The notes beneath the pieces were generated by a model. That model saw nothing but the letters and a program-made list of their open reading frames with translations. It was not told the DNA's origin and ran no database searches. A stretch of 64,000 nt of DNA from assembly GCF_026626665.1 (NCBI RefSeq), contig NZ_JAPNKE010000002.1, positions 1,165,204-1,229,203 on the forward strand, given 5' to 3'. Positions 621 through 63,910 of this stretch are shown here, in pieces. Position 1 is the first letter of the stretch. The number at the start of each line of letters is the position of its first letter. The position numbers were made by a program, and so were the translations under genes. Source of the stretch: Nannocystis pusilla (GTDB taxonomy: Bacteria > Myxococcota_A > Polyangia > Nannocystales > Nannocystaceae).

Positions 621-1436
621 TCAGCCGTCCGCGGGCTCGCGCGGGGCGAGCACCTGGGCCTCGAGCGCGCGGCCGATCGGGCCGCGGCGGTCGCCGAGCT
701 CGGCGTCGACCAGGCCGAGGCCGTCGGGCTGTGAGACGTGGCGGGTCCGCAGGCGCACGAACTCGCCCTCGAGCGCGCGGTGGAGGTAGATGGTGAGGTC
801 GGCGTTGATGAAGGTCCAGCGGGCGAACTCGAGGGCGAAGCCGACGCCGTTGATCGCGTCGGCGGCGACGGCGACCCGCTGGGCCGGGCTCGGCGCCTCG
901 CCGGCGACCAGCCGACCGCGCAGCCGCAGCCACCCGTCCCCGAAGCCAGGTTCCAGAGGACATGTCCCGAGGCGCAGCTCCATCGCGGTGTGGTAGCCGA
1001 CGGGGTCGGGGAAGAAGTCGAAGGTCCCCTCGGGGAGGCCGCGCGGGTCGAGCGGGTCGTCTTCGGGCGCGAGCGCGGGCGGGACGGGGACGGCGGCGCG
1101 GCGGATGAACAGGGCGCCGGCGCGGGCGCACGGGCGGCCGTCGACCGCGAGGGTGCACTGCAGGCCGAGCGCCTGCCGGCCGGCGCGCAGCGGCTCGACG
1201 ACGAGGTCGCAGGCGGCGATCGGGACCGGGCGCAGGAAGTCGGTGGTGACGCGGGCGAGCTGGAAGTCACCGAGCTCGCCGGCGCGGCGCTCCATGGCCC
1301 GCAGCATGAGCGCGGTCGGTGGGCCGCCGTGCTGCAGCCGCAGGTCCCAGGGGCCGCGGGTCCAGGGGGTGGCGATGAAGCGGGCGGCGCGGTCTGCTTC
1401 GCCGTCGGGGAGGTAGAACGCCTCGTCGGGCCGCAT
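621..1436 (-). CDS. Thioesterase-like superfamily protein (acyl-CoA thioesterase TesB-like fold)
   Basis: 271-aa ORF with high GC3 codon usage. The overall pattern resembles 4HBT_3 / acyl-CoA thioesterase-like proteins. The family call is weak. Confidence 0.45.
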   Translation of the reverse strand: MRPDEAFYLPDGEADRAARFIATPWTRGPWDLRLQHGGPPTALMLRAMERRAGELGDFQLARVTTDFLRPVPIAACDLVVEPLRAGRQALGLQCTLAVDGRPCARAGALFIRRAAVPVPPALAPEDDPLDPRGLPEGTFDFFPDPVGYHTAMELRLGTCPLEPGFGDGWLRLRGRLVAGEAPSPAQRVAVAADAINGVGFALEFARWTFINADLTIYLHRALEGEFVRLRTRHVSQPDGLGLVDAELGDRRGPIGRALEAQVLAPREPADG

Positions 1437-8595: not shown

Positions 8596-8700
8596 TCCGG
8601 GAGCCCGCGTTCGTCCTTCGATGATCCGAAGGGCATGTCCTCGCGGACATGCCCTTCAGACCATGGTCTGCGGGGCATGTCCGAGAGGACATGCCCGAAG
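8596..8700. repeat. Cluster of CATG-centred palindromic hairpins (REP/BIME-like) between convergent genes
   Basis: Reads ccttcgATGATCcgaagg, then GGGCATGTCC-tcgc-GGACATGCCC, ACCATGGTC, then GGGGCATGTCC-gagag-GACATGCCC. These are perfect 10-bp stems with 4-5 nt loops. Confidence 0.65.
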
Positions 8701-15914: not shown

Positions 15915-16865
15915 ATGTCCCCAAACTCAGGTGAGCCTGCGACGCCGCGCGCCGCGGATCCGCGAGGATCCTGGCGCGCGGTCATCGATATCGGGACCAA
16001 CAGCGTCCTGCTGCTCGTCGCCCGCTGGCGCGGCCAGGACATCGAGATCGCGCTCGACCAGGCCACCATCACCCGCCTCGGCAAGGGCGTGGCGGCGACC
16101 GGCGTGCTGGCGCCCGAGTCGATCGCGCGCACGCTCGAAGTGCTGAAGCAGTACCGCGCGACCGCGGCGCAGTACGGGGCGACGCCGCTGGCGGTCACGA
16201 CCGAGGGCGTGCGCCTGGCCAAGAACCGCGACGAATTCCTGCGGCCCGCGGCCGAGGTGCTCGGCGCGCCGGTGCGGCTGCTCAGCGGCGCGGAGGAGGC
16301 CGAGCTGTCGTTCCGCTCGGTGGCGCAGGAGACCGGCTCGGCCGGGCCGCTGCGCGTGCTCGACATCGGCGGCGGCTCGACGGAGCTGGCCGTCGGCGAG
16401 GGCGAACAATTGGTCTCGTCGGTGTCGCACCCGATCGGCGCGGTGCGGCTGTACGAGCGCTTCGTGTCGCACGACCCGCCGGAGCCGGCCGAGGTGGCGC
16501 AGATCGAGCTCGAGGCGCTGGACACGTTCCGGCGCGGACAGCCGCTCGCGGCGTACCCGATCCTCACCGGGCTCGCGGGCACGGTCACGACCGCGGCGGC
16601 GATGCTGCGCGAGCTGCCGGCCTACGAGCGCGATGCGGTCGACGCCACGGCGTTCGCGTACGCCCAGGTCCGCGACCTCCGCGACCGCGCGGCGCAGGTG
16701 ACCGCCGCGGAGCGGTGCCGCCTGTGGCCCGCGCTCGACCCGGCGCGCGCCGACGTGATCGTCGCGGGGCTGACGATCCTGGTGGCGGCGATGCAGCACT
16801 GCGGGGCCACCAGCCTGGTCGTGCGCGACCGCGGCCTGCGCTACGCGCTGATCGAGAGGGATTGA
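15915..16865 (+). CDS. ppx: Ppx/GppA family phosphatase (exopolyphosphatase / guanosine pentaphosphate phosphohydrolase)
   Basis: AVIDIGTNSVLLLVA ASKHA-fold motif and LDIGGGSTEL. Stop overlaps the next start. Confidence 0.8.
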   Translation: MSPNSGEPATPRAADPRGSWRAVIDIGTNSVLLLVARWRGQDIEIALDQATITRLGKGVAATGVLAPESIARTLEVLKQYRATAAQYGATPLAVTTEGVRLAKNRDEFLRPAAEVLGAPVRLLSGAEEAELSFRSVAQETGSAGPLRVLDIGGGSTELAVGEGEQLVSSVSHPIGAVRLYERFVSHDPPEPAEVAQIELEALDTFRRGQPLAAYPILTGLAGTVTTAAAMLRELPAYERDAVDATAFAYAQVRDLRDRAAQVTAAERCRLWPALDPARADVIVAGLTILVAAMQHCGATSLVVRDRGLRYALIERD

Positions 16866-17690
16866 TGCGCGTCGACCTGCACTGCCACTCGACCTGCTCG
16901 GACGGCAGTCTGTCGCCGACCGAGGTGGCGACGCGGGCCCAGGCCGAGGGCGTGCAGCTGTTCTGCCTGACCGACCACGACTCGGTGGCCGGCTACGAGG
17001 CGACGGCGGCGGCGCTGCCGAACACGAGGGTGCTGCGCGGGGTCGAGCTGAGCTGCCGCCACGCCGGCAAGACGGTCCACCTGCTGATCTACGGGGTCCG
17101 CGAGGGGGCCGGGCTGACGGCGCTGCAGGGCCGGCTCGAGCATGTCCTCGAGGACAGGCGCACCCGCCTCAAGGCGATCATCGCCCGCCTGCGCCGGCTC
17201 GGGGTCAAGCTCGACGGCGAGAAGATCCTCATCGCCACCCACGGCCACACGCCCGGCCGGCCCGACGTGGCCCGCGCGCTGGTCGAGGCCGGGGTGGTCC
17301 GCTCGCAGCGCGAGGCGTTCGAACGCTACCTGCGCGACGGCGGCCCGGCCGACGTCGCGCTCGAGCGGGTGTCGCTCGACGACGGCCTCCGCCTCGGCCG
17401 CAACTCGGGGGCGAAGATGTCGCTGGCCCACCCGCACGCTGCGCTCGCCGCAGCTGGTCGACGAGATGTTCGTGCAGTACCGGTCGGCCGGGCTCGAGGG
17501 CATCGAGGCCTATTACGGCCGCTACGGGGCGCAGGAGCGCGGGCTGTGGCTGAACGTGGCCAAGCGGCGCGAGCTGGTGGTCACCGGCGGCTCGGACTTC
17601 CACGGGGCGGCGGTGCCGGAGATCCGGAATCCCGGCATCGAGCTGCCGGAGCGCCACGCGGAGCGCCTGCAGGCCTGGCTGGCGGAGTGA
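16865..17690 (+). CDS. PHP domain (polymerase/histidinol-phosphatase-like) metal-dependent phosphoesterase, frameshift at about 17440
   Basis: The start MRVDLHCHSTCSDGS carries the PHP motif. Two frames join at SLAHPH; the C-terminal part (GIEAYYG...TGGSDFHG) is in the other frame. Confidence 0.65.
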
Positions 17691-17781
17691 GCCGCGGCTG
17701 CGGGCGCCGCGGGTCGTCATGGCTTTGGGACATGTGTGAAGGGCCAGGTCCGAAGCGACAGGGTCGAAGGGGCAGGTCGAG

Positions 17782-19391
17782 GTGAGCGCGGGCGGCGGCG
17801 AGACCGGGGCGGAGCGGCGAGGTGAGGACCGGCCGGTGCTGCTGCGCGTCGAGGGGCTGACCATCGCGCGGCCCGACGGCGCGCCGCTGGTCGAGGCGCT
17901 GGCGCTGACGCTGCGGGCCGGCGAGACCGCGGCGGTGTTCGGCGCCAGCGGGGCCGGCAAGTCGACGCTGATGGCGGCGCTGCACGACGCGGACGGGCTG
18001 CGAGCGCGCGGGTTCGCGGTCCGGGCGGCCACGTTCACGGCGGCCGGCGGGGTCGGGATCGTGCCGCAGCGCGGGGCGCTGCTCGACCACCTGAGCGCCG
18101 CCGGTAACATCGCCCTGGCGCTGCGCAACGCCGAGCAGCCGGTGTCCGCCACTCCGCAGGAGGTCGAGCGCTGGATCGCCGCGCTCGACCTGCCGCGGCG
18201 CTGGAGCGACGAGGCGCAGGCGGTCGCGCACGTCAGCGGCGGCGAGGCGCAGCGCCTGGCCGTCGCGCGCACGCTGGCGGGCGGTCGGCGGATCTTGCTG
18301 CTCGACGAGCCCTCGGTCGGGCTCGATCCGCTCCGCGTCGATCGCCTGGCAGCGGCCCTGCGCGGGCAGATCGCCGGGCAGAGCGCGGCCGCGCTGGCGA
18401 TCACCCACGACCTCGAGTTCGCGGCCGGCTTCGCCGATCGCTTCCTCTACCTCGACGCGGCCGCGGGACGCCTGGTCGAGCTGCCGATCGCGCGCAGCGA
18501 GACGGCGGCGGCGACGGTCGCGGCGCTCGGGGCGGCGCTGCGCGAGCTGCTGGCCAAAGAGACAGGTCAGGCGGGCGGGCGATCGCGGCGGCGCCTGGGG
18601 GCGCGGCTGCGAGCTGTCCTCGGGGACATGTTGGCGCCGTTCGCGGTGCTGGTCCGGGCCCTCGCGGCCGCTCCGGCGGCGCTGGCCCGCCCGCGCGACT
18701 TCGCCGAGGTCGCGCGGGTGACCTTCGCGCAGGGCCTGTGGCGCCCGCTCGGCTTCATCGCCGCGGTGTCGCTGCTGGTCGGCTTCACCCTGCTGTACAT
18801 CTTCCACCGCGCGTTCTCGGGCGGCGGGGTGCCGGTGCGGCCGGACAAGATCTTCGCGCTGATCGGGTCGATGCACGTGCTGGCCCTGGCGCCGCCGCTG
18901 TCAGCGATCCTGTTCGCGGCGACGTCGGGCAGCGCGGTCGCGGCCTGGCTCGGCGGGATGTCGCTGACGCGCCAGACGGCGGCGCTGCGCGGGCTCGGGA
19001 TCGCCGAGGCGCGCTACTTGTGGCTGCCGGCGGTGCTCGGGCTGGCGCTGGCGTACGTGGTGCTGGCGGGGGTGTTCACCGGCGGGATGGTGCTCGGCGG
19101 GCTGCTCTACTTGAAGCTGCAGGTACCGGCGCTCGCCGACCCGTGGCTGGTCGTCACCGCCGACTTGCTCGATCCGCCGGCCGCGCGCGCCGTTCCGCGC
19201 GCGCGCTGGTGCTGGTCGCGCTCTACGCCGGCGGCATCGCGGCGGACGCGGTGGCCAAGGGGTCGAGCGACAAGGCCAGCGCCGACGCCGTGACCGCGGC
19301 GATGGTCCGCAGCGTGATGGCCTGTACGCTGTGGGTGGTGGCGCTCGAGCTGGCGTCGCTGGTCGTGCTGTATGGCGCTCGCGGAGGATAA
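17782..19391 (+). CDS. ABC transporter ATP-binding/permease fusion (MlaF/MlaE-like), C-terminal frameshift at about 19195
   Basis: Walker A GASGAGKST, signature VSGGEAQRL, Walker B LLLDEPSVGLD and ITHD. This is followed, with no stop, by a MlaE-like permease. Its last helix (LVLVALYAGGIAADAV...) continues in the adjacent frame. Confidence 0.6.
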
Positions 19392-21216
19392 GTGGCGGCT
19401 CGCGTCGATGGCTGGTCTGGCCGGCCTGGCGCTGGCGGGCGCGCTGCTGGCCGCCGGGCGCGGGGCGCTGATCGAGGCGGCGGCGGTGGAGCCGTTCCGC
19501 GTCGAGGTCGCAAGCCCGCACGCGCCGGCGGCCGACGGGCGCTGGGCGGGGCGCGTGGTCCCGCCGGAGCTGGCCGCGCGGGTGGTGGTGCGGGTCGACG
19601 GCGAGATCCGCGGCGGGCCTGAAGGACATGCGCAAAAGGACATGTCCGCGGCGCGCGATGATTCCGGAGGACATGCTCTCGAGGCCATGTCCAGAGTTGC
19701 CGAGGTTGACGGGCATGGCGCCGGGACGAACGGTCGCGGTCCTGAAGGACATGTTTACGAGAACATGTTCGAGGGGACACTTTCGGTCGCGCTGGGCGAC
19801 GCGCCGGGGCTGCGGCTGATCGAGGTCGAGCTGCCGCGGCAGGGGGGTGCGGAGGTGGCGACCGACGCGGCGCTGGTCGGGCCGTTCCGCGCGCGCTACG
19901 ACGACTCGCCGGGCTGCGGCGCGGGGGTGCGGGTGGCGGCGAGGGCGATCGATCGGCTGGTGCTGCCGCCGCTGCGCGACAAGCTGCTGGCGGCGGCGCC
20001 GTCGATCGGGCTGCTCGGGCCGGGGACGACGCTCGAGGAGGCGAGCGTGACGCTGCGGGGCGACGCGCTGTGGTTCCGCGTGGCGCTGGCCGGCGAGCAC
20101 CGGATCGCGGTGTCCGGCGCGCTGGAGGTGCGGGTGGCCGGGCCGCGCCAGCTCGGCGTGCGCCTGGCCTCGCTCGGGCCGGTCGAGTTCACGGGGACGT
20201 TGCGCACGCGAGCGACGCTCGGGGCGGCCGGGCTGGGGGCGATCGTGACGGGGCCGCTGGCGCCGCTCGGGGCGCTGGCCGGCTACGCGCTGGCCGACGG
20301 CTACATCGACCGACGCGCGCGGCAGGAGGTCGAGACGCAGCTGACGGCGGCCCTGGCGGTGGCCAGCGCGATCCCGCTGATCCCCGAGCGCGCCGAGCTG
20401 ATCGTCGGCGAGCCGCGCTCGCGGGCGACGCTGGCGTTCTGCGCGGTGGCCATCGAGTCGGGCGGGATCGCGGCGCACCTGTCCGTACGGCCAGATAAAC
20501 CTGACCCGAAGACCAGCCAGGAGGCGAGCCGGGTGCGCACGCGGCTGGCGGCGATCCCGGGGCCGGCGCGGCACGGGCTCGCGCTGCCGCCGCTGCGGCC
20601 GGTGGCGCCGACGGCCGACGCGGAGGTCGAGCTGAGCCTCGACACGGTCGACGCGCTGCTCGACGCGTGGACCGCCAACGGGCTGCTCGGCGACCTGATG
20701 GGGCGGGCGCAGTGGGTCGAGCGGGTCGACGAGGCGCTCGGCGAGTGGACGACGCTCGGCCTGGCGGAGATCGAGGTGCGGCTGCCGCCGTCGCTGTCCC
20801 CGGGGACAGGTGACGGCTGGGCGCTGACCGTGGCGGGGCTGCGGCTGGGGCTGACCGGCAGCGAGGGCGAGGACCCCGGGGAGGTGCTGGTGGCCGGACG
20901 CGGGTTCGTGCGCCCGCACTACGACGCGCGGCGCGGGCGGCTGGCGCTGGCGGGGACGATCGACCGCCTGCGCCTGTCGTGCGCCCGTGCAGGGGCGCTG
21001 TGGCCGTGCTTCGCCGCGCTGCTCGAGATGGGCGACGTCGAGGCGAGGCTCGATGCGCTGCTGGCTCCCGGCGCCGCGGGGCTGCCGGGGATCGAGGTGC
21101 GGGCGCTGCTGCGCGACGGCACGCGAGCGCTGCGCGACGGGGGGCTGGAGCTGGCCGACCTGGCGATCAGCTACCCGCAGCCGGGCGTGCTGCGCGTGGC
21201 GGCCGAGGTGCGCTGA
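19372..21216 (+). CDS. Hypothetical membrane-anchored protein. The reading frame spans an embedded repeat cluster; the true start may be downstream at about 19762.
   Basis: 614-aa ORF with an N-terminal hydrophobic helix. Residues about 83-143 are encoded by GGACATG-type repeat units. The remainder is Ala/Leu-rich with no recognised domain. Confidence 0.35.
   Translation: MALAEDKWRLASMAGLAGLALAGALLAAGRGALIEAAAVEPFRVEVASPHAPAADGRWAGRVVPPELAARVVVRVDGEIRGGPEGHAQKDMSAARDDSGGHALEAMSRVAEVDGHGAGTNGRGPEGHVYENMFEGTLSVALGDAPGLRLIEVELPRQGGAEVATDAALVGPFRARYDDSPGCGAGVRVAARAIDRLVLPPLRDKLLAAAPSIGLLGPGTTLEEASVTLRGDALWFRVALAGEHRIAVSGALEVRVAGPRQLGVRLASLGPVEFTGTLRTRATLGAAGLGAIVTGPLAPLGALAGYALADGYIDRRARQEVETQLTAALAVASAIPLIPERAELIVGEPRSRATLAFCAVAIESGGIAAHLSVRPDKPDPKTSQEASRVRTRLAAIPGPARHGLALPPLRPVAPTADAEVELSLDTVDALLDAWTANGLLGDLMGRAQWVERVDEALGEWTTLGLAEIEVRLPPSLSPGTGDGWALTVAGLRLGLTGSEGEDPGEVLVAGRGFVRPHYDARRGRLALAGTIDRLRLSCARAGALWPCFAALLEMGDVEARLDALLAPGAAGLPGIEVRALLRDGTRALRDGGLELADLAISYPQPGVLRVAAEVR
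19615..19800. repeat. CATG-palindrome repeat cluster (at least 8 units) lying in-frame inside the ORF 19372..21216
   Basis: Units gaaggacatgcgcaaaaggacatgtcc, ggaggacatgctctcgaggccatgtcc, gggcatggc, gaaggacatgtttacgagaacatgttcgagggg. Confidence 0.65.
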
Positions 21217-21264: not shown

Positions 21265-21325
21265 GCGCCGAGACATGCCTGCCCGAACGGACATGTTCTA
21301 TCGAGCATGCTCGTTCGGACATCCG
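21265..21325. repeat. CATG-palindrome units between convergent genes
   Basis: gagacatgcctgcccgaacggacatgttctatcgagcatgctcgttcggacatcc, with the inverted pair cgaacggacatg...catgctcgttcg. Confidence 0.55.
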
Positions 21326-43837: not shown

Positions 43838-44662
43838 ATGCTCCACTCGGAAGACCCGCACTACCACCGCGCCGCGGAACACCTGCGTGAACGCCTCGAG
43901 GGCGCCAAGATCGACTGGGTCGTGGTGTCCGGCTCCGGCTTCGTCGGCATGGCCGGCGACGGGCCCGACGGGCTCGGCATGACGGTGGAGGGCTCGATCC
44001 CGCTGCGCGGCCTCGGCCTGCCGGTGCCCACGGTCGCCGGTCACGGCACGGCGCTGGTGTTCGGCACCGTCGGCAAGCTGCGCGTGTGCGTGCAGACCGG
44101 CCGGATCCACCCGTACGAGGGCCACCCGATCAACGTCGTCACCGCGCCGCTGTGGGCCATGCTGGCCAACGGCGCCCGCGGGGTGTGCCTGACCTGCGCC
44201 GTCGGCGGGCTCGACCCGGCGCTGCGCACCGGCCAGGTGGTGCTGCTCAAGGACCAGATGAACCTGTTCGGCCCGACCCCGCTGGTCGGCGCCCGCTTCA
44301 TCGACATGAGCCAGCTCTACAGCCCGCACCTGCGCGCGCGCCTGCAGGCGATCGACCCCGGGCTCGGCGCGAGCAGCCTGGCCGAGGTGGTCTACGCCCA
44401 CGCCCGCGGCCCGCAGTACGAGACGCCGGCCGAGACGGCGGCCCTGCGCTCGCTCGGCGGCCAGGTGGTCGGCATGTCGACCACCTACGAGGCGATCCTC
44501 GCCGCCGCCCACGGCGCGGCGGTCTGCGGCGTCGGCGTGGTCACCAACGCGGCCAGCCAGGTCGGCCTGAACCACGAAGAGGTCCAGGAGCGCACGCGCG
44601 CGGCCAAGCCCCAGGTGGCCAGCCTGCTGCGCGGGCTGCTGGTCCAGCCGCCTGGCCCTTGA
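43838..44662 (+). CDS. Purine nucleoside phosphorylase family protein (PNP/MTAP type)
   Basis: VVSGSGF...GHG, VGMSTTYEA and a PNP-I phosphate-binding pattern. Confidence 0.75.
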   Translation: MLHSEDPHYHRAAEHLRERLEGAKIDWVVVSGSGFVGMAGDGPDGLGMTVEGSIPLRGLGLPVPTVAGHGTALVFGTVGKLRVCVQTGRIHPYEGHPINVVTAPLWAMLANGARGVCLTCAVGGLDPALRTGQVVLLKDQMNLFGPTPLVGARFIDMSQLYSPHLRARLQAIDPGLGASSLAEVVYAHARGPQYETPAETAALRSLGGQVVGMSTTYEAILAAAHGAAVCGVGVVTNAASQVGLNHEEVQERTRAAKPQVASLLRGLLVQPPGP

Positions 44663-44770
44663 GGCATGTCCTGAAGGGCATGCCCGAAAGGGCATGTCGA
44701 TACGGCCATGCTCGAAAGGGCATGCTCGAAAGGGCCTGTGCCGAAGGACAGGCTGTGCCCGCGGAGGGGC
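44650..44770. repeat. CATG-palindrome cluster arranged as 5 direct 14-15-nt units (GGGCATGYYCGAAAG)
   Basis: catgtcctgaag gGGCATGCCCgaaag GGCATGTCgatac GGCCATGCTCgaaag GGCATGCTCgaaag GGCCTGTGCCgaaGGACAGGCTGTGCC. Confidence 0.6.
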
Positions 44771-46626: not shown

Positions 46627-49578
<2,952 letters not shown>

Positions 49579-49584
49579 AGTTGT

Positions 49585-49672
49585 CCTGAGAGACATGCAG
49601 GTTCGGACATGCCCGGACGGGCATGTCGTACGCGACATGCCCGCGAGGACATGTCCTTGAGGCTAGGGCCGG
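49585..49672. repeat. CATG-palindrome cluster between convergent genes
   Basis: gacatgcaggttcGGACATGCCCggacGGGCATGTCgtacgcGACATGCCCgcgagGACATGTCCttgagg. Confidence 0.65.
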
Positions 49673-50713
49673 TTGACGGCGACGGTGATCGAGGAGATCC
49701 CGCTGCCGAGGCCGATGATGTCGGGGCTGCCGTCGCCCTCGAGGTCGGCGACGTGGAGCCCGTCGCCCTCGTTCAGGAGCTGGAGATAGGCGGTCATGTG
49801 CGGGGCGAAGCCCCTGGCCGTCGCCGCGGCGGACCGACACGGGGCCGGTGCCGGCGGTGACGAGGTCGAGGGCGCCGTCGCTGTCGAGGTCCCCGGCGGC
49901 GAGGAGGCGGGCGCCGCAGTGGACCGGGTAACGGGCCGTGAGCGGGAAGTCGCCGCTCTTCTGCAGGAAGACGACGAGCTCGCTGGTCTCGAATTCGGTG
50001 TTGGTGGCGACGCCGGCGAGGTCGCCGAGGCCGTCGCCGTCGAGGTCGGCGACGACGAAGTCGTGGAACCATAGCTCGGCCGGCATGCTCGGGGCGGAGG
50101 TCGTCTGGACGTCGCCCTGGTGGCGGACGAGCATGCCGCTGCCGCCCTGGGTGAACACGAAGTCGTCGGCGCGGCCGTCGCCGTCGAGGGCGCCGAGGAC
50201 GTAGCCGGGCGTGGCCTGCTCGAGGGCCGGGCCGACGCTCTCGGTGAATTCGCCGGTGCCGTCGCCGAGCAGGACGACGAGGCCGTCGAGCGCCTCGGTG
50301 TGGGCGACGGTGATGATGTCGAGGTGGCCGTCTTCGTTCCAGTCGACCGCGTCGAGGGTCATGACGTTGTCGGCGAGGTGGACGACCTGGTCGTCGGCGA
50401 GGCCGCCCTGGCCGTCGAGGAAGAGGACGTGGACGCTGACGCCGTCGACGCCGATCGAGTGGGCGAGGACGTCGAGGACGCCGTCCTCGTCGAAGTCGCC
50501 GCTGGCGCGCACGACGGGCTGGTCGCCGATCGACTGCGGCCACGGCTGCGAGTCCGAGGTCGCCGGCGCGAACAGCTCGGCGCCGAGGGTGCCGTCGGCG
50601 AAGGTCATGAGCAGGTCGGCGCCGTGGAGATCGTCGAGCGGGAGGACGAGGCTCGAGGTGACCGGCTGCGAGCCGAAGCCGAGGGTGCCGAGGATGCACA
50701 GCTCGCCCGCCAC
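49663..50713 (-). CDS. FG-GAP/VCBS repeat (integrin-alpha-like beta-propeller) protein, frameshift at about 49805
   Basis: Repeated DxDxDGxxD calcium-binding loops (DFDEDGVLDV, DWNEDGHLDI, DLDGDGLGDL, DLDSDGALDL). The true C-terminus (...HVADLEGDGSPDIIG...VNRP*) is in the adjacent frame, ending at 49663. The N-terminus probably extends to the ATG at about 50993 via another C-run frameshift, giving a signal peptide plus a Cys-rich segment. Confidence 0.55.
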
Positions 50714-51179
50714 GAACTGACCGTCGAAGCAGGTGGCCTCGGCGGCGAAGCTGTCGACGAGCTCGCAGGTGCCGAGCTCGCCGCCGGTGTCGGTGGGATC
50801 GATGCCGGTGTCGGTGGTGGGTGCGCCCGAGTCGGTGGCCGGTCCGTCGGTGGTGTCGCCGGGTCCCTCGGAGGTGTTGCCGGAGCCGCCGCCGGAGGCG
50901 TGCTCGCAGTCGCCGATGCAGTGCTTGATATCGAGGTCACACGCGGGGAGGAGAGAGGAGGATCGGGAGGGTCGATAGCGGAGGGATACGCATGGTGGCC
51001 TTTCAGCGAGTGAGTGCCTCGGGGCTCGGGGTTCCGTTCGCCGATCTTCGCGCCTTCGCTGCGGCGGTGATCGAGGTGGCCGCTCGCGTCACGGCGGGCT
51101 CGCCGGGGCGAGGTGGCCAGCGTCCCGGCCTCGGCGACGCTGGACGTCGCGCTTCGTCGCTCGGCGCGGCGGTCCTCCC

Positions 51180-54344: not shown

Positions 54345-54425
54345 GGCGCGCTGTCCTATCAGACATGTCCTTTTATAATTGTCTGGAAGGACATGTCGGA
54401 GGGAGCATGTCCGAAAGGACCGATA
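54345..54425. repeat. CATG-palindrome cluster with an embedded AT-rich segment (TTTTATAATTG)
   Basis: ctgtcctatcaGACATGTCCttttataattgtctggaaGGACATGTCggagggaGCATGTCCgaaaGGACC. Confidence 0.6.
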
Positions 54426-55489: not shown

Positions 55490-55550
55490 CATCGGGTATG
55501 GTGCGGAGGACATGATGAAAGAGCATGTCCTCGGGGACATGTGGCGGGTG
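55490..55550. repeat. CATG-palindrome units
   Basis: ggaGGACATGatgaaagaGCATGTCCtcggGGACATGTggcgg. Confidence 0.55.
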
Positions 55551-58391: not shown

Positions 58392-58847
58392 GTGCGGCGC
58401 AAGCGACTCGACCGGATGCAGTGCTCGATCGCGCGGGCGCTCGATGTCGTCGGCGACCCGTGGACGCTGCTGCTCGTGCGCGACGCGCTGCTCGGGGTGA
58501 CGCGCTTCGAGGCGTTCCAGGCGCGGCTGCAGATCCCGCGGGCCACGCTGACGGCCCGCCTGGAGCACCTGGTCAGCGCGGGAATTCTCGAGCGCCGGTC
58601 CTACCAGGAGCACCCGCCGCGCGAGGCGTACGTGCCGACGGCGAAGGGCCGCGGGCTGCGGCCGGTGATCGTGACGCTGATGCAGTGGGGCGACGAGTTC
58701 GCCCGCGACGATCCGCCGCCGACGGTGCTCGAGGACGCCGCCACGGGGCTGCCGATCGAGCCGGTGCTGGTCGACCGCGTCAGCGGGGCGCCGCTCACCG
58801 CGCTGCGCGTGCGGGCGGTCGGGCCGGTGGTGCCGCGGCGGGGCTGA
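58392..58847 (+). CDS. HxlR family transcriptional regulator
   Basis: MQCSIARALDVVGDPWTLLLVRDALLGVTRFEAFQARLQIPRATLTARLEHLVSAGIL is the HxlR signature. Immediately downstream of the MFS gene. Confidence 0.8.
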   Translation: MRRKRLDRMQCSIARALDVVGDPWTLLLVRDALLGVTRFEAFQARLQIPRATLTARLEHLVSAGILERRSYQEHPPREAYVPTAKGRGLRPVIVTLMQWGDEFARDDPPPTVLEDAATGLPIEPVLVDRVSGAPLTALRVRAVGPVVPRRG

Positions 58848-58925
58848 GAGGGCATGCTCGTACGAGCATGTCCTCGAGGGCATGAAGGATGGGGCATGTC
58901 GGATGGGACATGCGCGAGAGGTCAG
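58846..58925. repeat. CATG-palindrome cluster between convergent genes
   Basis: gaGGGCATGCTCgtacGAGCATGTCCtcgaGGGCATGaaggatgGGGCATGTCggatgGGACATGCgcgagagg. Confidence 0.65.
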
Positions 58926-60802: not shown

Positions 60803-61588
60803 TCAGGCCTTGCGGGGGCGCGAGCGGCGGGAGCGGGCGGGCTTGGCCGGGGGCGCAGGGGGCTCGGGCTCGGGCTCGTCTGCCTCTTCGGGCATGTCCT
60901 CGAGGTCCGGTGCTTCCGAACCTGTCGCTTCGGACATGTCCTCGGAGCCCTCCTCGGCCTCGGCCTCGGCTTCGGCCTCGGGCGGGTCGGACGGGGCCGC
61001 CTCGAGGCCGCTGTTGCGGAGGGTGCGGGGCGGCAGCAGCTCGGGCTCGCTGACGACCTTCTTGGCCAGGAAGATGGCGGCGTCGATCTGGGAGAAGCTG
61101 CGGGCGCGGTAGAACTGGAGCGCGCGCTTGTTGTTGGCGGCGACCTCGAGGACGAGGTGGGTGCAGCCGCGCACGCGGGCGAGGTGCTCGAGCTGCTCGA
61201 TGACGAAGCTGCCGATCCCGCGGCCCTGGAAGTCGGGGTGGATGGCGATCTCCTCGACGAACAGCGGGCGCATGTCCCGGCTCTCGAAGTAGCGCTCGTT
61301 GATCCAATTGTCGGAGCCGATGACCTCGTAGGCGCACTCGGCGTAGCCGACGATCACCGGGGCGTCGCCCTCGTGGATCTCGAACAGCAGCTGCTCGATG
61401 CCCTCCTCCTCGTAGATCTCGAGGAAGCGGGTCTTGGTGCGGGGGCGCTGGTACTCGACGGTCTCGCGGTTGACCGAGCGGAACACGCGCTTGAGGAACT
61501 CCCACACCTTGTTGAGGTCGCGGCGGTGGATCCGGCGGACACGGATGGTCGGCTCCGTGACGGCGGGCGCGGGCTTGCGGGAGGCCAC
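60803..61588 (-). CDS. GNAT family N-acetyltransferase with an acidic C-terminal tail partly encoded by CATG-palindrome units
   Basis: GNAT core (IAIHPDFQGRGIGSFVI, NKRALQFYRARSF). The tail reads ...EEGSEDMSEATGSEAPDLEDMPEEADEPEPEPPAPPAKPARSRRSRPRKA. The DNA at 60885-60955 reads GGGCATGTCCtcgaggtccggtgcttccgaacctgtcgcttcGGACATGTCC. Confidence 0.7.
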   Translation of the reverse strand: MASRKPAPAVTEPTIRVRRIHRRDLNKVWEFLKRVFRSVNRETVEYQRPRTKTRFLEIYEEEGIEQLLFEIHEGDAPVIVGYAECAYEVIGSDNWINERYFESRDMRPLFVEEIAIHPDFQGRGIGSFVIEQLEHLARVRGCTHLVLEVAANNKRALQFYRARSFSQIDAAIFLAKKVVSEPELLPPRTLRNSGLEAAPSDPPEAEAEAEAEEGSEDMSEATGSEAPDLEDMPEEADEPEPEPPAPPAKPARSRRSRPRKA

Positions 61589-63689: not shown

Positions 63690-63910
63690 GGCACAGGGCC
63701 CGCTCGTCCTCAGCATGAGGCCCGGTCCGACGGCGGACGGTGCGGCATGTCTCATTGGACATGTCATCAAGAACATGCTCGATAGAGCATGCGCTCATGA
63801 GCATGTTCCTCGAGTCATGGCCTGGAGGGCAGGGGCGTCCGGGGCCGGCGCGCCTCATGAGCATGTTCTTCGAGTCAGGGCCGGGAGGGCATGTGCGTCC
63901 GGGGCCCGGC
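63690..63910. repeat. CATG-palindrome cluster plus an about 62-bp direct repeat x2 (ctcatgagcatgttc(c/t)tcgagtca(t/g)ggcc(t/g)ggagggca(g/t)g(g/t)gcgtccggggcc(g/c)ggcgcg)
   Basis: gGCATGTCtcattGGACATGTCatcaaGAACATGCTCgataGAGCATGCgctcatGAGCATGTTC... read directly. Confidence 0.6.

What the first reader, a model, noticed from the sequence alone, without database searches (positions are those of the whole stretch)
19615..19800. An 8-unit palindrome cluster sits in-frame inside a 614-aa ORF directly after the ABC permease
ORF 19372..21216 reads through the whole cluster without a stop (…GGPEGHAQKDMSAARDDSGGHALEAMSRVAEVDGHGAGTNGRGPEGHVYENMFEGTLS…). There are two readings. The hairpin cluster may be intergenic, following the MlaE-like permease, with the real gene starting downstream near 19762 (MFEGTL...). 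Or the element has been exonized into a coding region while keeping the frame. The answer decides the gene model. If real, exonization of REP-like elements would be unusual.
Basis: partly seen in the sequence, partly recalled or inferred. Interest (0 to 1): 0.6.

Follow-up and report, generated by a model that had tools for sequence, protein, structure and literature searches.

The report
Palindrome repeat array translated inside a gene
A cluster of short palindromic repeats that normally sits between genes in Nannocystis lies in frame inside a real lipid-binding-protein gene, where it appears to be read as a floppy, unconstrained surface loop; this has been described for repeats in other bacteria, but not for this repeat family or lineage.

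Summary
Window 19612-19790 holds seven exact CATG-core palindrome units plus one degenerate unit (0.69 expected), read without a stop by ORF 19372..21216.

The "intergenic, gene starts at 19762" reading is rejected:
- GC3 is about 0.97 in the same frame on both sides of the cluster.
- Orthologues align on both sides.
- The AlphaFold model shows confident strands on both sides, and only residues 82-133 are disordered.

The window matches Nannocystis pusilla. The units belong to a local REP-like family: the 10-bp palindrome GGACATGTCC on a strict 14-nt lattice, mostly just after stop codons.

Across related genomes the same loop holds:
- no units in distant relatives;
- a short array of two exact units plus a third, variably intact one (GP-EGH-xxK-DMS-xGT) in three species;
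- +57 nt in N. exedens;
- +123 nt in N. pusilla and strain RBIL2.

All steps are in frame. The inserted segment evolves about four times faster than its flanks, with no codon-position bias, so it looks like a tolerated passenger rather than a functional peptide.

In-frame REP/RPE clusters are documented elsewhere (Di Nocera 2013; Rickettsia RPEs). This is therefore a new variant of a known kind: moderate interest, and the gene model is settled.

The parts
17782..19391 (+). Upstream gene: fused ABC ATPase + MlaE-type permease. In this genome the frame switches near 19186-19200 (ORFs 17782..19293 and 18738..19391). Its stop at 19389-19391 overlaps the next gene's ATG by 20 nt.
   Evidence: ORFs; Pfam ABC_tran 1.5e-18 and MlaE 6.4e-15; GC3 phase switch; 4-nt gap relative to five other Nannocystis genomes.
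19372..21216 (+). Real CDS of 614 aa: N-terminal helix, a small beta domain, then a BPI/LBP/CETP-like (TULIP) lipid-binding fold. The start is probably 19372; NCBI annotates from M13 (19408).
   Evidence: GC3 about 0.97 on both sides of the cluster; 25 homologues, with P0001 100% identical from N. pusilla; alignment A1; AF2 mean pLDDT 73; Foldseek hits to BPI, LBP and CETP with probability 1.00. Orthologues that lack M13 support the upstream start.
19612..19790 (+). In-frame cluster of CATG-core palindrome units, about residues 81-140, translated as GPEGHAQKDMSAARDDSGGHALEAMSRVAEVDGHGAGTNGRGPEGHVYENMFEGTLS.
   Evidence: GC3 drops to 0.53-0.67 here. pLDDT is below 50 for residues 82-133.
19624..19647 (.). 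Block A: two units (GGACATGCGC, GGACATGTCC), 14 nt apart.
19669..19720 (.). Block B: four lattice positions (CATG at 19672, 19686 and 19714; decayed CCGA at 19700). Present only in N. pusilla and strain RBIL2.
19747..19784 (.). Block C: three lattice positions (GGACATGTTT, GAACATGTTC, degenerate GGACACTTTC). MAFFT aligns it with the short array found in all six Nannocystis genomes compared.
19616..19738 (+). 123 nt (41 codons) absent from N. punicea, N. radixulma and N. bainbridge. Because of the internal repeats, the same gap can equally be placed at 19648-19770.
   Evidence: DNA alignment; codon alignment.
21268..21315 (.). Intergenic array of the same family (three CATG) between the convergent genes ending at 21216 (+) and 21335 (-). 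The five related genomes each carry a different array downstream of this gene.
8628..8699 (.). Canonical intergenic array: five CATG at exactly 14-nt spacing, 72 nt, between convergent genes. It folds at -62.7 kcal/mol (z = -10).
44659..44730 (.). Canonical five-unit array that starts at the stop codon of the upstream gene.
49588..49659 (.). Canonical five-unit array, 13 nt after a stop codon.
58847..58918 (.). Canonical five-unit array that fills the gap between convergent genes.
63740..63825 (.). Array with seven CATG on the 14-nt lattice.
60887..60944 (-). Second in-frame array in the window: four lattice positions (CATG at 60893 and 60935; decayed CCGG and CCTG between them) in the C-terminal tail of a GNAT acetyltransferase, read as EDMSEATGSEAPDLEDMP.

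Best explanation
The cluster belongs to a Nannocystis-lineage family of REP-like repeats. Each unit is a 10-bp palindrome (consensus GGACATGTCC, more generally RRRCATGYYY) followed by a 4-nt, often A-rich spacer, so units sit on a strict 14-nt lattice. Neighbouring units pair into hairpins with stems of about 10-13 bp and 4-nt loops. Most arrays lie 0-50 nt after stop codons, often between convergent genes. There they probably act as RNA 3' stem-loops; that role is inferred, not shown.

This copy lies inside a real gene. The gene encodes a protein with an N-terminal helix (probably a membrane anchor) and a BPI/LBP-like lipid-binding fold, and its start overlaps the end of a MlaFE-type ABC transporter gene. 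A short array entered a loop of the N-terminal beta domain in an ancestor of the cultured Nannocystis clade. In the three shortest forms it has two exact units plus a third, variably intact one, spans three lattice positions (42 nt), and reads GP-EGH-xxK-DMS-xGT. It then grew in in-frame steps: +57 nt in N. exedens and +123 nt in N. pusilla and strain RBIL2.

It is tolerated for three reasons. The consensus array has no stop codon in any of the six frames. The length changes that survive are multiples of three. The hydrophilic peptide sits in a disordered loop of the model. The peptide itself is a nearly neutral passenger.

Shown: the gene model, the in-frame presence, the stepwise series and the lack of constraint. 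Inferred: translation, the order of the steps, the growth mechanism and the RNA role of the intergenic arrays.
For: - Coding signal: GC3 is 0.93-1.00 in one frame both upstream (19395-19619) and downstream (19770 onward), and 0.53-0.67 inside the cluster.
- Orthologues: proteins of 554-580 aa align on both sides; invariant residues include G18, L19, V75, D76, G77 before the cluster and L141, G146, E151 after it.
- DNA series across six genomes: length differences of 0, +57 and +123 nt, all multiples of 3. A metagenomic relative carries +33 nt on a coherent five-position lattice.
- Distant relatives (42-46% identity) and P0009 lack exact CATG units at this site, and their loci contain no 14-nt-spaced arrays.
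- Structure model: pLDDT is below 50 only for residues 82-133 in this region; strands 43-80 and 136-169 flank it with pLDDT 77-87.
- Element origin of the codons: the flanks use GGA for 9 of 377 Gly codons and CAT for 1 of 31 His codons, whereas nearly every G-H unit in all six genomes reads GGA-CAT.
- Lack of constraint: window versus RBIL2 differs at 23 of 123 nt in the insert against 75 of 1719 nt in the flanks (Fisher P = 2.8e-8). Differences by codon position are 4/10/9 in the insert and 8/7/60 in the flanks.
- Family anatomy: a 14-nt gap between consecutive CATG occurs 28 times in the window; all-pair distances of 14/28/42/56 nt occur 29/20/16/6 times. There are 13 clusters against 2.5 expected.
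- Stop-poor design: the consensus is open in six of six frames; 47 of 60 frames of real arrays are open, against 44% for shuffled arrays.
- Recurrence: a second in-frame array sits in the GNAT tail, and its 14-aa period is kept in orthologues.
Against: - No transcript, ribosome-profiling or peptide data exist here, so translation of the segment is inferred from frame preservation and from the intact gene.
- Only two independent genome-level length changes support selection for frame (chance about 1 in 9).
- The net gain of the shortest form over unit-free orthologues is about 8 codons, not 14. The third unit also aligns with pre-existing residues (EGQL versus NGTW). The original event is therefore not cleanly reconstructed.
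- The interior alignment between N. pusilla and N. exedens is ambiguous, so gain of block B and loss of block B cannot be told apart.
- Exact GGACATG cores persist in six species despite strong GC3 pressure. This could mean DNA- or RNA-level constraint rather than pure passenger status.
- The family's mobilising mechanism is unknown: no transposase was sought and no target-site duplication was seen.
Confidence: 0.8

Rival explanations
1. The cluster is intergenic. The real gene starts near 19762 (MFEGTL...) and the 614-aa ORF is a read-through artefact of a GC-rich genome.
For: GC3 falls to non-coding-like values inside the cluster. Long spurious ORFs are common here, for example a 797-aa ORF on the opposite strand. 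A crude GC3-based gene caller cut the gene at 19756. Di Nocera 2013 warns that many REPs near ORF N-termini are really extragenic (PMC3733652).
Against: GC3 is about 0.97 in the same frame for 19395-19619. Residues 1-80 are conserved in all orthologues, including those without any units. The N-terminal helix and strands 43-80 are modelled confidently next to strands 136-169. No promoter-like or terminator-like site was found in the cluster.
Confidence: 0.03
2. The locus is decaying in N. pusilla. The upstream ABC gene is frameshifted, so the downstream gene is no longer needed and the repeat cluster has expanded in a pseudogene that happens still to be open.
For: The window lacks 4 nt in a (GC)n palindrome near 19186-19200 relative to five other genomes, which breaks the ABC-MlaE frame.
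Against: Strain RBIL2 has the same 123-nt expansion with an intact upstream gene. Flank differences between the two are 8/7/60 by codon position, the signature of purifying selection. There is no stop or frameshift in 614 codons. The 4-nt gap may be an assembly error.
Confidence: 0.06
3. The repeat is selected at the protein level. G-H-x3-4-(D/N/A)-M-(S/F) motifs, rich in His, Met and Asp, would form a functional loop such as a metal-binding site, and the DNA palindromes would be a by-product.
For: The GH and DM dipeptides recur three times in the window protein and are kept in six species. A similar 14-aa periodic motif occurs in the GNAT tail.
Against: The same DNA lattice is abundant in non-coding DNA. 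The units use codons that are otherwise almost absent (GGA, CAT, GAA). There is no codon-position bias, and divergence is about four times that of the flanks. Units decay freely, for example CAT to CGT in RBIL2 and GGACATG to GGGCAGG in L132. The segment is disordered in the model.
Confidence: 0.04
4. The units are kept inside the CDS because they work as a nucleic-acid element there. Possibilities are mRNA hairpins that set relative expression or stability of the transporter and lipid-binding parts of the operon, hairpins that pause translation after the N-terminal helix, or binding sites for a CATG-palindrome-binding protein.
For: Exact GGACATG cores are retained in six species at sites where 4-fold divergence is 12-25% and GC3 pressure is extreme. 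Three modest hairpins are predicted. REPs inside operons modulate expression in other bacteria (PMC3733652, PMC12306157).
Against: Predicted folding of the in-frame cluster is barely better than shuffles (z about -1.8 to -1.9), against -5 to -10 for most intergenic arrays. Unit number and position differ between species. Orthologues without exact units keep the same operon.
Confidence: 0.1

Closest known systems
Intragenic REPs ('REP-decorated ORFs') described by Di Nocera, De Gregorio and Rocco 2013 (PMC3733652)
   Same: Short palindromic repeats that are mostly extragenic, sit near 3' ends and between convergent ORFs, and are occasionally found inside ORFs as dimers or clusters. Clusters encoding 43-82 aa are reported in Thauera and R. 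conorii, and homologues in related species lack the insert.
   Different: Those families are 20-40-nt imperfect palindromes tagged with GTAG or CGTC, and many are linked to RAYT transposases. Here the unit is a self-complementary 10-mer on a strict 14-nt lattice, no tag was found, the host is a myxobacterium not listed there, and RAYT linkage was not tested.
Rickettsia palindromic elements (RPEs; Ogata et al. 2000, as reviewed in PMC10969869)
   Same: Palindromic repeats inserted in frame into unrelated protein-coding genes. They are compatible with the host protein's fold and are found at surface positions.
   Different: RPEs are single elements of about 100-150 bp that encode a conserved peptide, in reduced AT-rich genomes. 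Here there are arrays of 14-nt units with variable spacers, a non-conserved peptide, an approximately 12-Mb genome (contig length; this window is 72% GC), and growth by steps at one site.
E. coli REP/BIME clusters
   Same: Clusters of short palindromes at gene ends. They are predicted stem-loops in transcripts and occur in many copies per genome.
   Different: BIMEs alternate REP orientations with defined linker motifs and are extragenic by definition. The Nannocystis units are individually symmetric and strictly periodic.
MITEs that form in-frame fusions (ERIC, BOX, Correia, Nezha; PMC10969869)
   Same: Small non-autonomous repeats that can add peptide segments to host proteins.
   Different: MITEs have terminal inverted repeats and target-site duplications, and they move as a unit. 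No such ends or duplications are seen here.

Membership tests
REP (repetitive extragenic palindromes), criteria listed in PMC12306157 | Mostly extragenic and close to gene ends | tested here: met
   By a crude GC3-based gene call, the canonical arrays and most other chains lie outside coding runs, and several begin 0-50 nt after a stop, often between convergent genes. In high-GC metagenome contigs, 1 of about 53 arrays is in frame.
REP (repetitive extragenic palindromes), criteria listed in PMC12306157 | Palindromic; forms stem-loops | tested here: met
   The unit consensus GGACATGTCC is a perfect palindrome. Intergenic arrays fold with z from -3.1 to -10.
REP (repetitive extragenic palindromes), criteria listed in PMC12306157 | Short (about 14-40 nt), with a shared consensus and many copies | tested here: met
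   The unit is 14 nt. There are 80 lattice units in the window plus five loci and 13 clusters in 64 kb. Spacers are variable, so similarity is confined to the 10-mer core.
GTAG / CGTC REP superfamilies (PMC3733652) | GTAG or CGTC tetranucleotide at one end of the palindrome | tested here: not met
   No consistent tag lies within about 15 nt outside the array ends. The occasional GACG or CGTC is expected in 72% GC DNA.
GTAG / CGTC REP superfamilies (PMC3733652) | Association with a RAYT (IS200/IS605-type tyrosine transposase) gene | not tested
   Only 64 kb of an approximately 12-Mb genome was available, and no transposase search was run.
Rickettsia palindromic elements (RPE) | In-frame insertion in a functional ORF that is absent from orthologues | tested here: met
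Rickettsia palindromic elements (RPE) | Element of about 100-150 bp encoding a family-conserved peptide | tested here: not met
   The cluster is built from 14-nt units. The peptide differs at 13 of 41 residues between two strains that are 98% identical in the flanks.
MITE | Terminal inverted repeats and a target-site duplication | tested here: not met
   The repeated G[GT]CCTGAAGGACATG at 19612 and 19735 is the start of duplicated blocks, not a short duplication flanking a defined element.
Host protein: BPI/LBP/CETP-like (TULIP) lipid-binding fold | Two tandem TULIP domains recognisable by structure comparison | tested here: met
   Foldseek against PDB: BPI 1bp1 E = 3.8e-13, LBP 4m4d 1.8e-11, CETP 2obd 7.9e-10, each with probability 1.00; TM-scores are only 0.23-0.43. 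There is no Pfam hit.

The most novel reading that the evidence does not exclude
The 14-nt CATG-lattice arrays may be an active, self-targeting repeat family in Nannocystaceae that is coding-compatible by construction: open in all six frames, hydrophilic in one orientation, and frame-neutral at three units (42 nt). On that reading it repeatedly seeds and enlarges disordered loops and tails in proteins, which would make it a REP-driven route of protein-length evolution in a free-living bacterium with a large genome. The retained exact cores inside this gene might additionally act as an intragenic RNA or DNA signal.
Probability: 0.12. Interest if true: 0.65.

Novelty: new variant of a known kind. 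Interest (0 to 1): 0.45.

Why it matters
- Gene model: the gene starts at 19372 (or 19408), not 19762, and the repeat cluster is part of the ORF. Annotators should not trim it.
- Evolutionary series: the same loop carries none, about three, about five and eight repeat units across related genomes. This gives a dated view of how an extragenic repeat becomes protein sequence and then drifts.
- Repeat family: in the held literature I found no description of a 14-nt lattice of GGACATGTCC palindromes in myxobacteria. Similar arrays occur in high-GC metagenome contigs.
- Scope for follow-up: two in-frame cases in only 64 kb suggest a genome-wide census could test whether such repeats contribute measurably to disordered-region growth in large bacterial genomes.

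Tried and rejected
- Rfam scan of the whole window: only one tRNA, and no known RNA family at any array.
- Pfam on the 614-aa protein: no hit.
- Exact look-up of P0001 for its annotated context: not on record.
- Literature: searches for Nannocystis plus palindromic repeats, for RAYT or REP in myxobacteria, and for the 10-mer itself found no bacterial description. The top-ranked listed hits for GGACATGTCC are p53 response-element papers, a coincidence of consensus.
- Strand orientation of arrays: I asked whether purine-rich spacers track the sense strand, which would argue for an RNA role. Both in-frame arrays fit, but the intergenic ones show no consistent bias, so I dropped the idea.
- Conservation of the rare A/T-ending codons as proof of selection: with only 12-25% 4-fold divergence this is not significant. 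I used it only as evidence of element origin.
- Metagenome pattern scan: most of the 120 or more hits are unrelated 7-nt or 14-nt minisatellites in low-GC DNA. Only the high-GC subset was used.
- Exact ancestral insertion: I could not reconstruct it. The net gain is about 8 codons and the boundaries are ambiguous.
- Phase variation by 14-nt slippage: considered and judged unlikely here, because adjacent units differ in their spacers and all observed length variants are in frame.
Full report
**1. Observation**

Exact CATG cores lie at 19627, 19641, 19672, 19686, 19714, 19750 and 19764, and an eighth lattice position at 19778 has decayed to CACT. Seven CATG in 186 nt compare with 0.69 expected from the rest of the window (Poisson P = 8e-6). 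The heptamer GGACATG occurs 47 times in the window against 6.35 expected, and none of 100 shuffles reached 47. ORF 19372..21216 (614 aa) reads through the cluster with the quoted peptide. The ORF upstream carries ABC_tran and MlaE domains in one polypeptide.

**2. What the units are**

Across the window, consecutive CATG tetramers are exactly 14 nt apart 28 times. All-pair distances of 14, 28, 42 and 56 nt occur 29, 20, 16 and 6 times.

A logo built from 80 lattice units gives GGA-CATG-TCC followed by a 4-nt, often A-rich spacer. The unit is therefore a 10-bp perfect palindrome plus a spacer.

The canonical arrays have five CATG in 72 nt. They lie at 8628-8699, 44659-44730, 49588-49659 and 58847-58918, with a longer one at 63740-63825. 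There are 13 clusters of three or more CATG against 2.5 expected.

By a crude GC3-based gene call, the canonical arrays begin 0-50 nt after a stop codon and often fill the gap between convergent genes. They are predicted to fold far better than shuffles, with z from -5 to -10 for the four canonical arrays and -3.1 for the longer one. Rfam recognises none of them, and no GTAG or CGTC tag is present.

The five cultured-Nannocystis genomes each carry a different array downstream of the orthologous gene. Five more distant Nannocystaceae MAG loci have no 14-nt-spaced CATG at all.

A metagenome scan found the same kind of post-stop array in about 25 high-GC contigs. Some have perfectly identical 14-nt tandem units, which suggests that arrays grow by unit duplication.

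**3. Is the cluster inside a gene?**

Four lines of evidence say yes.

- *Coding signal.* GC3 is 0.93-1.00 in one and the same frame both upstream (19395-19619) and downstream (from about 19770), and 0.53-0.67 inside the cluster.
- *Homologues.* The protein has 25 database homologues. The best is 100% identical and comes from Nannocystis pusilla. Orthologues of 554-580 aa align on both sides of the cluster, with invariant residues before it (G18, L19, V75, D76, G77) and after it (L141, G146, E151).
- *Structure.* An AlphaFold2 model (mean pLDDT 73) has an N-terminal helix. It also has beta strands at 43-80 and 136-169 with pLDDT 77-87. Only residues 82-133 in this region fall below 50.
- *Control signals.* No promoter-like or terminator-like site lies in the cluster.

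The start is probably the ATG at 19372, which overlaps the upstream stop by 20 nt. It is conserved in six genomes, and several orthologues lack the internal Met13 that NCBI used.

The reading "intergenic, start near 19762" is therefore rejected.

**4. The comparative series**

Ten genomic loci were retrieved.

| Genomes | State of the loop |
|---|---|
| Distant relatives (42-46% identity) and P0009/L131 | No exact CATG units |
| N. punicea, N. radixulma, N. bainbridge | Two exact units plus a third, variably intact one, on three lattice positions: GGACATG-N7-GGACATGTC-N4-GGGACATGG (ACATTA in N. bainbridge), read as GP(D/E)GHxxKDMSxGT(W/L) |
| N. exedens DSM 71 | 57 nt more |
| N. pusilla (the window) and strain RBIL2 | 123 nt more |

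All differences are multiples of three. A metagenomic relative (L133) has +33 nt with CATG on one coherent five-position lattice. Another (L132, 66% identity) keeps only decayed units, for example GGGCAGG.

In the window the units form three blocks on different lattices. Blocks A and C are shared with N. exedens. Block B is found only in N. pusilla and RBIL2. The interior alignment is ambiguous, so gain and loss of block B cannot be told apart.

Synonymous (4-fold) divergence orders the genomes as RBIL2 0.125, exedens 0.142, punicea 0.207, bainbridge 0.209 and radixulma 0.25. This order fits nested growth.

**5. Element origin and lack of constraint**

In the flanks of the six orthologues, GGA is 9 of 377 Gly codons, CAT 1 of 31 His codons and GAA 2 of 223 Glu codons. 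Nearly every G-H unit nevertheless reads GGA-CAT. That marks these codons as element DNA, not evolved coding sequence.

Between the window and RBIL2, the insert differs at 23 of 123 nt and the flanks at 75 of 1719 nt (Fisher P = 2.8e-8). Differences by codon position are 4/10/9 in the insert and 8/7/60 in the flanks.

The gene is therefore under purifying selection, but the inserted peptide is not. Its predicted RNA folding is only marginal (z about -1.9), unlike most intergenic arrays.

**6. Why it is tolerated**

- A consensus array (GGACATGTCCGAAA repeated) has no stop codon in any of the six frames. Its three forward frames are cyclic permutations of GHVRKDMSERTCPK.
- Real arrays are open in 47 of 60 frames, against 44% for shuffled versions.
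- Because 14 mod 3 = 2, successive units are read in successive phases (GH, DM, TC/TW), and three units (42 nt) restore the frame. This explains the conserved EGH-xxK-DMS-xGT pattern.
- The insertion site is a loop that is about 14 residues long in unit-free orthologues.

**7. Not a one-off**

In the same window, the GNAT acetyltransferase gene 60803..61588 (minus strand) has a four-position array in its C-terminal tail. CATG lies at 60893 and 60935, with decayed CCGG and CCTG on the lattice between them. GC3 dips to 0.70 there. Orthologue tails keep the 14-aa period (EDMS...DMP), and more distant ones lack it.

A single GGACATGTCC, also with a GC3 dip, lies inside CDS 621..1436. One of about 53 arrays in high-GC metagenome contigs is in frame, as three units inside a large kinase-like protein.

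**8. Comparison with what is known**

Di Nocera et al. 2013 (PMC3733652) reported REPs inside genes in several species. These include clusters encoding 43-82 aa, and the authors warned that N-terminal cases may be mis-called starts. Rickettsia RPEs are the classic in-frame palindromic elements (PMC10969869).

This case behaves like those. It fails the defining tag of the GTAG/CGTC REP superfamilies, and it does not have the size or conserved peptide of RPEs. It also lacks MITE ends. Linkage to a RAYT transposase was not tested.

I found no report of this family or of Nannocystis repeats. I rate it a new variant of a known kind.

**9. Side observations**

- The host protein resembles BPI, LBP and CETP (Foldseek probability 1.00, E down to 3.8e-13). 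It follows a MlaFE-type transporter in a conserved Ppx-PHP-ABC/MlaE gene order.
- The transporter gene in this genome lacks 4 nt in a (GC)n palindrome relative to five other genomes, which breaks its frame. Strain RBIL2 has the same repeat expansion with an intact transporter gene, so the two features are unrelated.

**10. Verdict**

The segment is most likely a translated, nearly neutral loop derived from a REP-like array. Interest is moderate at 0.45. The phenomenon is known elsewhere, but the 14-nt lattice family and the clean stepwise series are new and testable.

Noticed in passing
window 19150-19230 (gap near 19186-19200): The fused ABC ATPase-MlaE gene changes reading frame here. The window lacks 4 nt in a GCGCGCGCGCCGTTCCGCGCGCGCGC palindrome relative to five other Nannocystis genomes, all of which keep one intact ORF. 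This is either a real frameshift or an assembly error.
   Followed up: partly
window 19372-21216, with neighbours 16715-19391: The host protein has no Pfam domain, but its model matches BPI, LBP and CETP (the TULIP lipid-binding fold). It follows a MlaFE-type ABC transporter in a conserved Ppx-GppA / PHP / ABC-MlaE / this-gene order. This may be an Mla-like lipid-transport system with a BPI-like periplasmic partner.
   Followed up: partly
window 60887-60944 (gene 60803..61588, minus strand): A second in-frame array of the same family sits in the disordered C-terminal tail of a GNAT acetyltransferase (EDMSEATGSEAPDLEDMP). The two middle units have decayed to CCGG and CCTG. Orthologue tails keep the 14-aa period.
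   Followed up: partly
window 958-967 (CDS 621..1436, minus strand): A single perfect GGACATGTCC lies inside a coding region, read as G-T-C-P, with a local GC3 dip to 0.70. It may be a third intragenic remnant.
   Followed up: no
L044, L052, L068, L124 and other high-GC metagenome loci; L088 11425-11467: Arrays of the same kind occur in high-GC environmental contigs just after stop codons, and some have perfectly identical 14-nt tandem units, which suggests recent unit duplication. In L088, three units lie in frame inside a large kinase/ATPase/histidine-kinase protein (RDMFGETCLKGHA).
   Followed up: partly
window 49670-49900: The GC3 phase changes near 49800 in the region beside the 49588-49659 array. 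The crude gene call (49544..50938, minus strand) is therefore probably wrong, or there is another frameshift or gene boundary here.
   Followed up: no
all arrays, for example window 19638-19647: The unit consensus RRRCATGYYY is identical to the consensus half-site of the animal p53 response element, and the top-ranked listed literature hits for GGACATGTCC are p53 papers. This is almost certainly a coincidence.
   Followed up: no
window 54358-54415 and 55505-55547: Two shorter arrays lie between same-strand (minus) genes rather than between convergent genes. The first contains an unusually AT-rich stretch (TTTTATAATTGTCT) for this genome.
   Followed up: no
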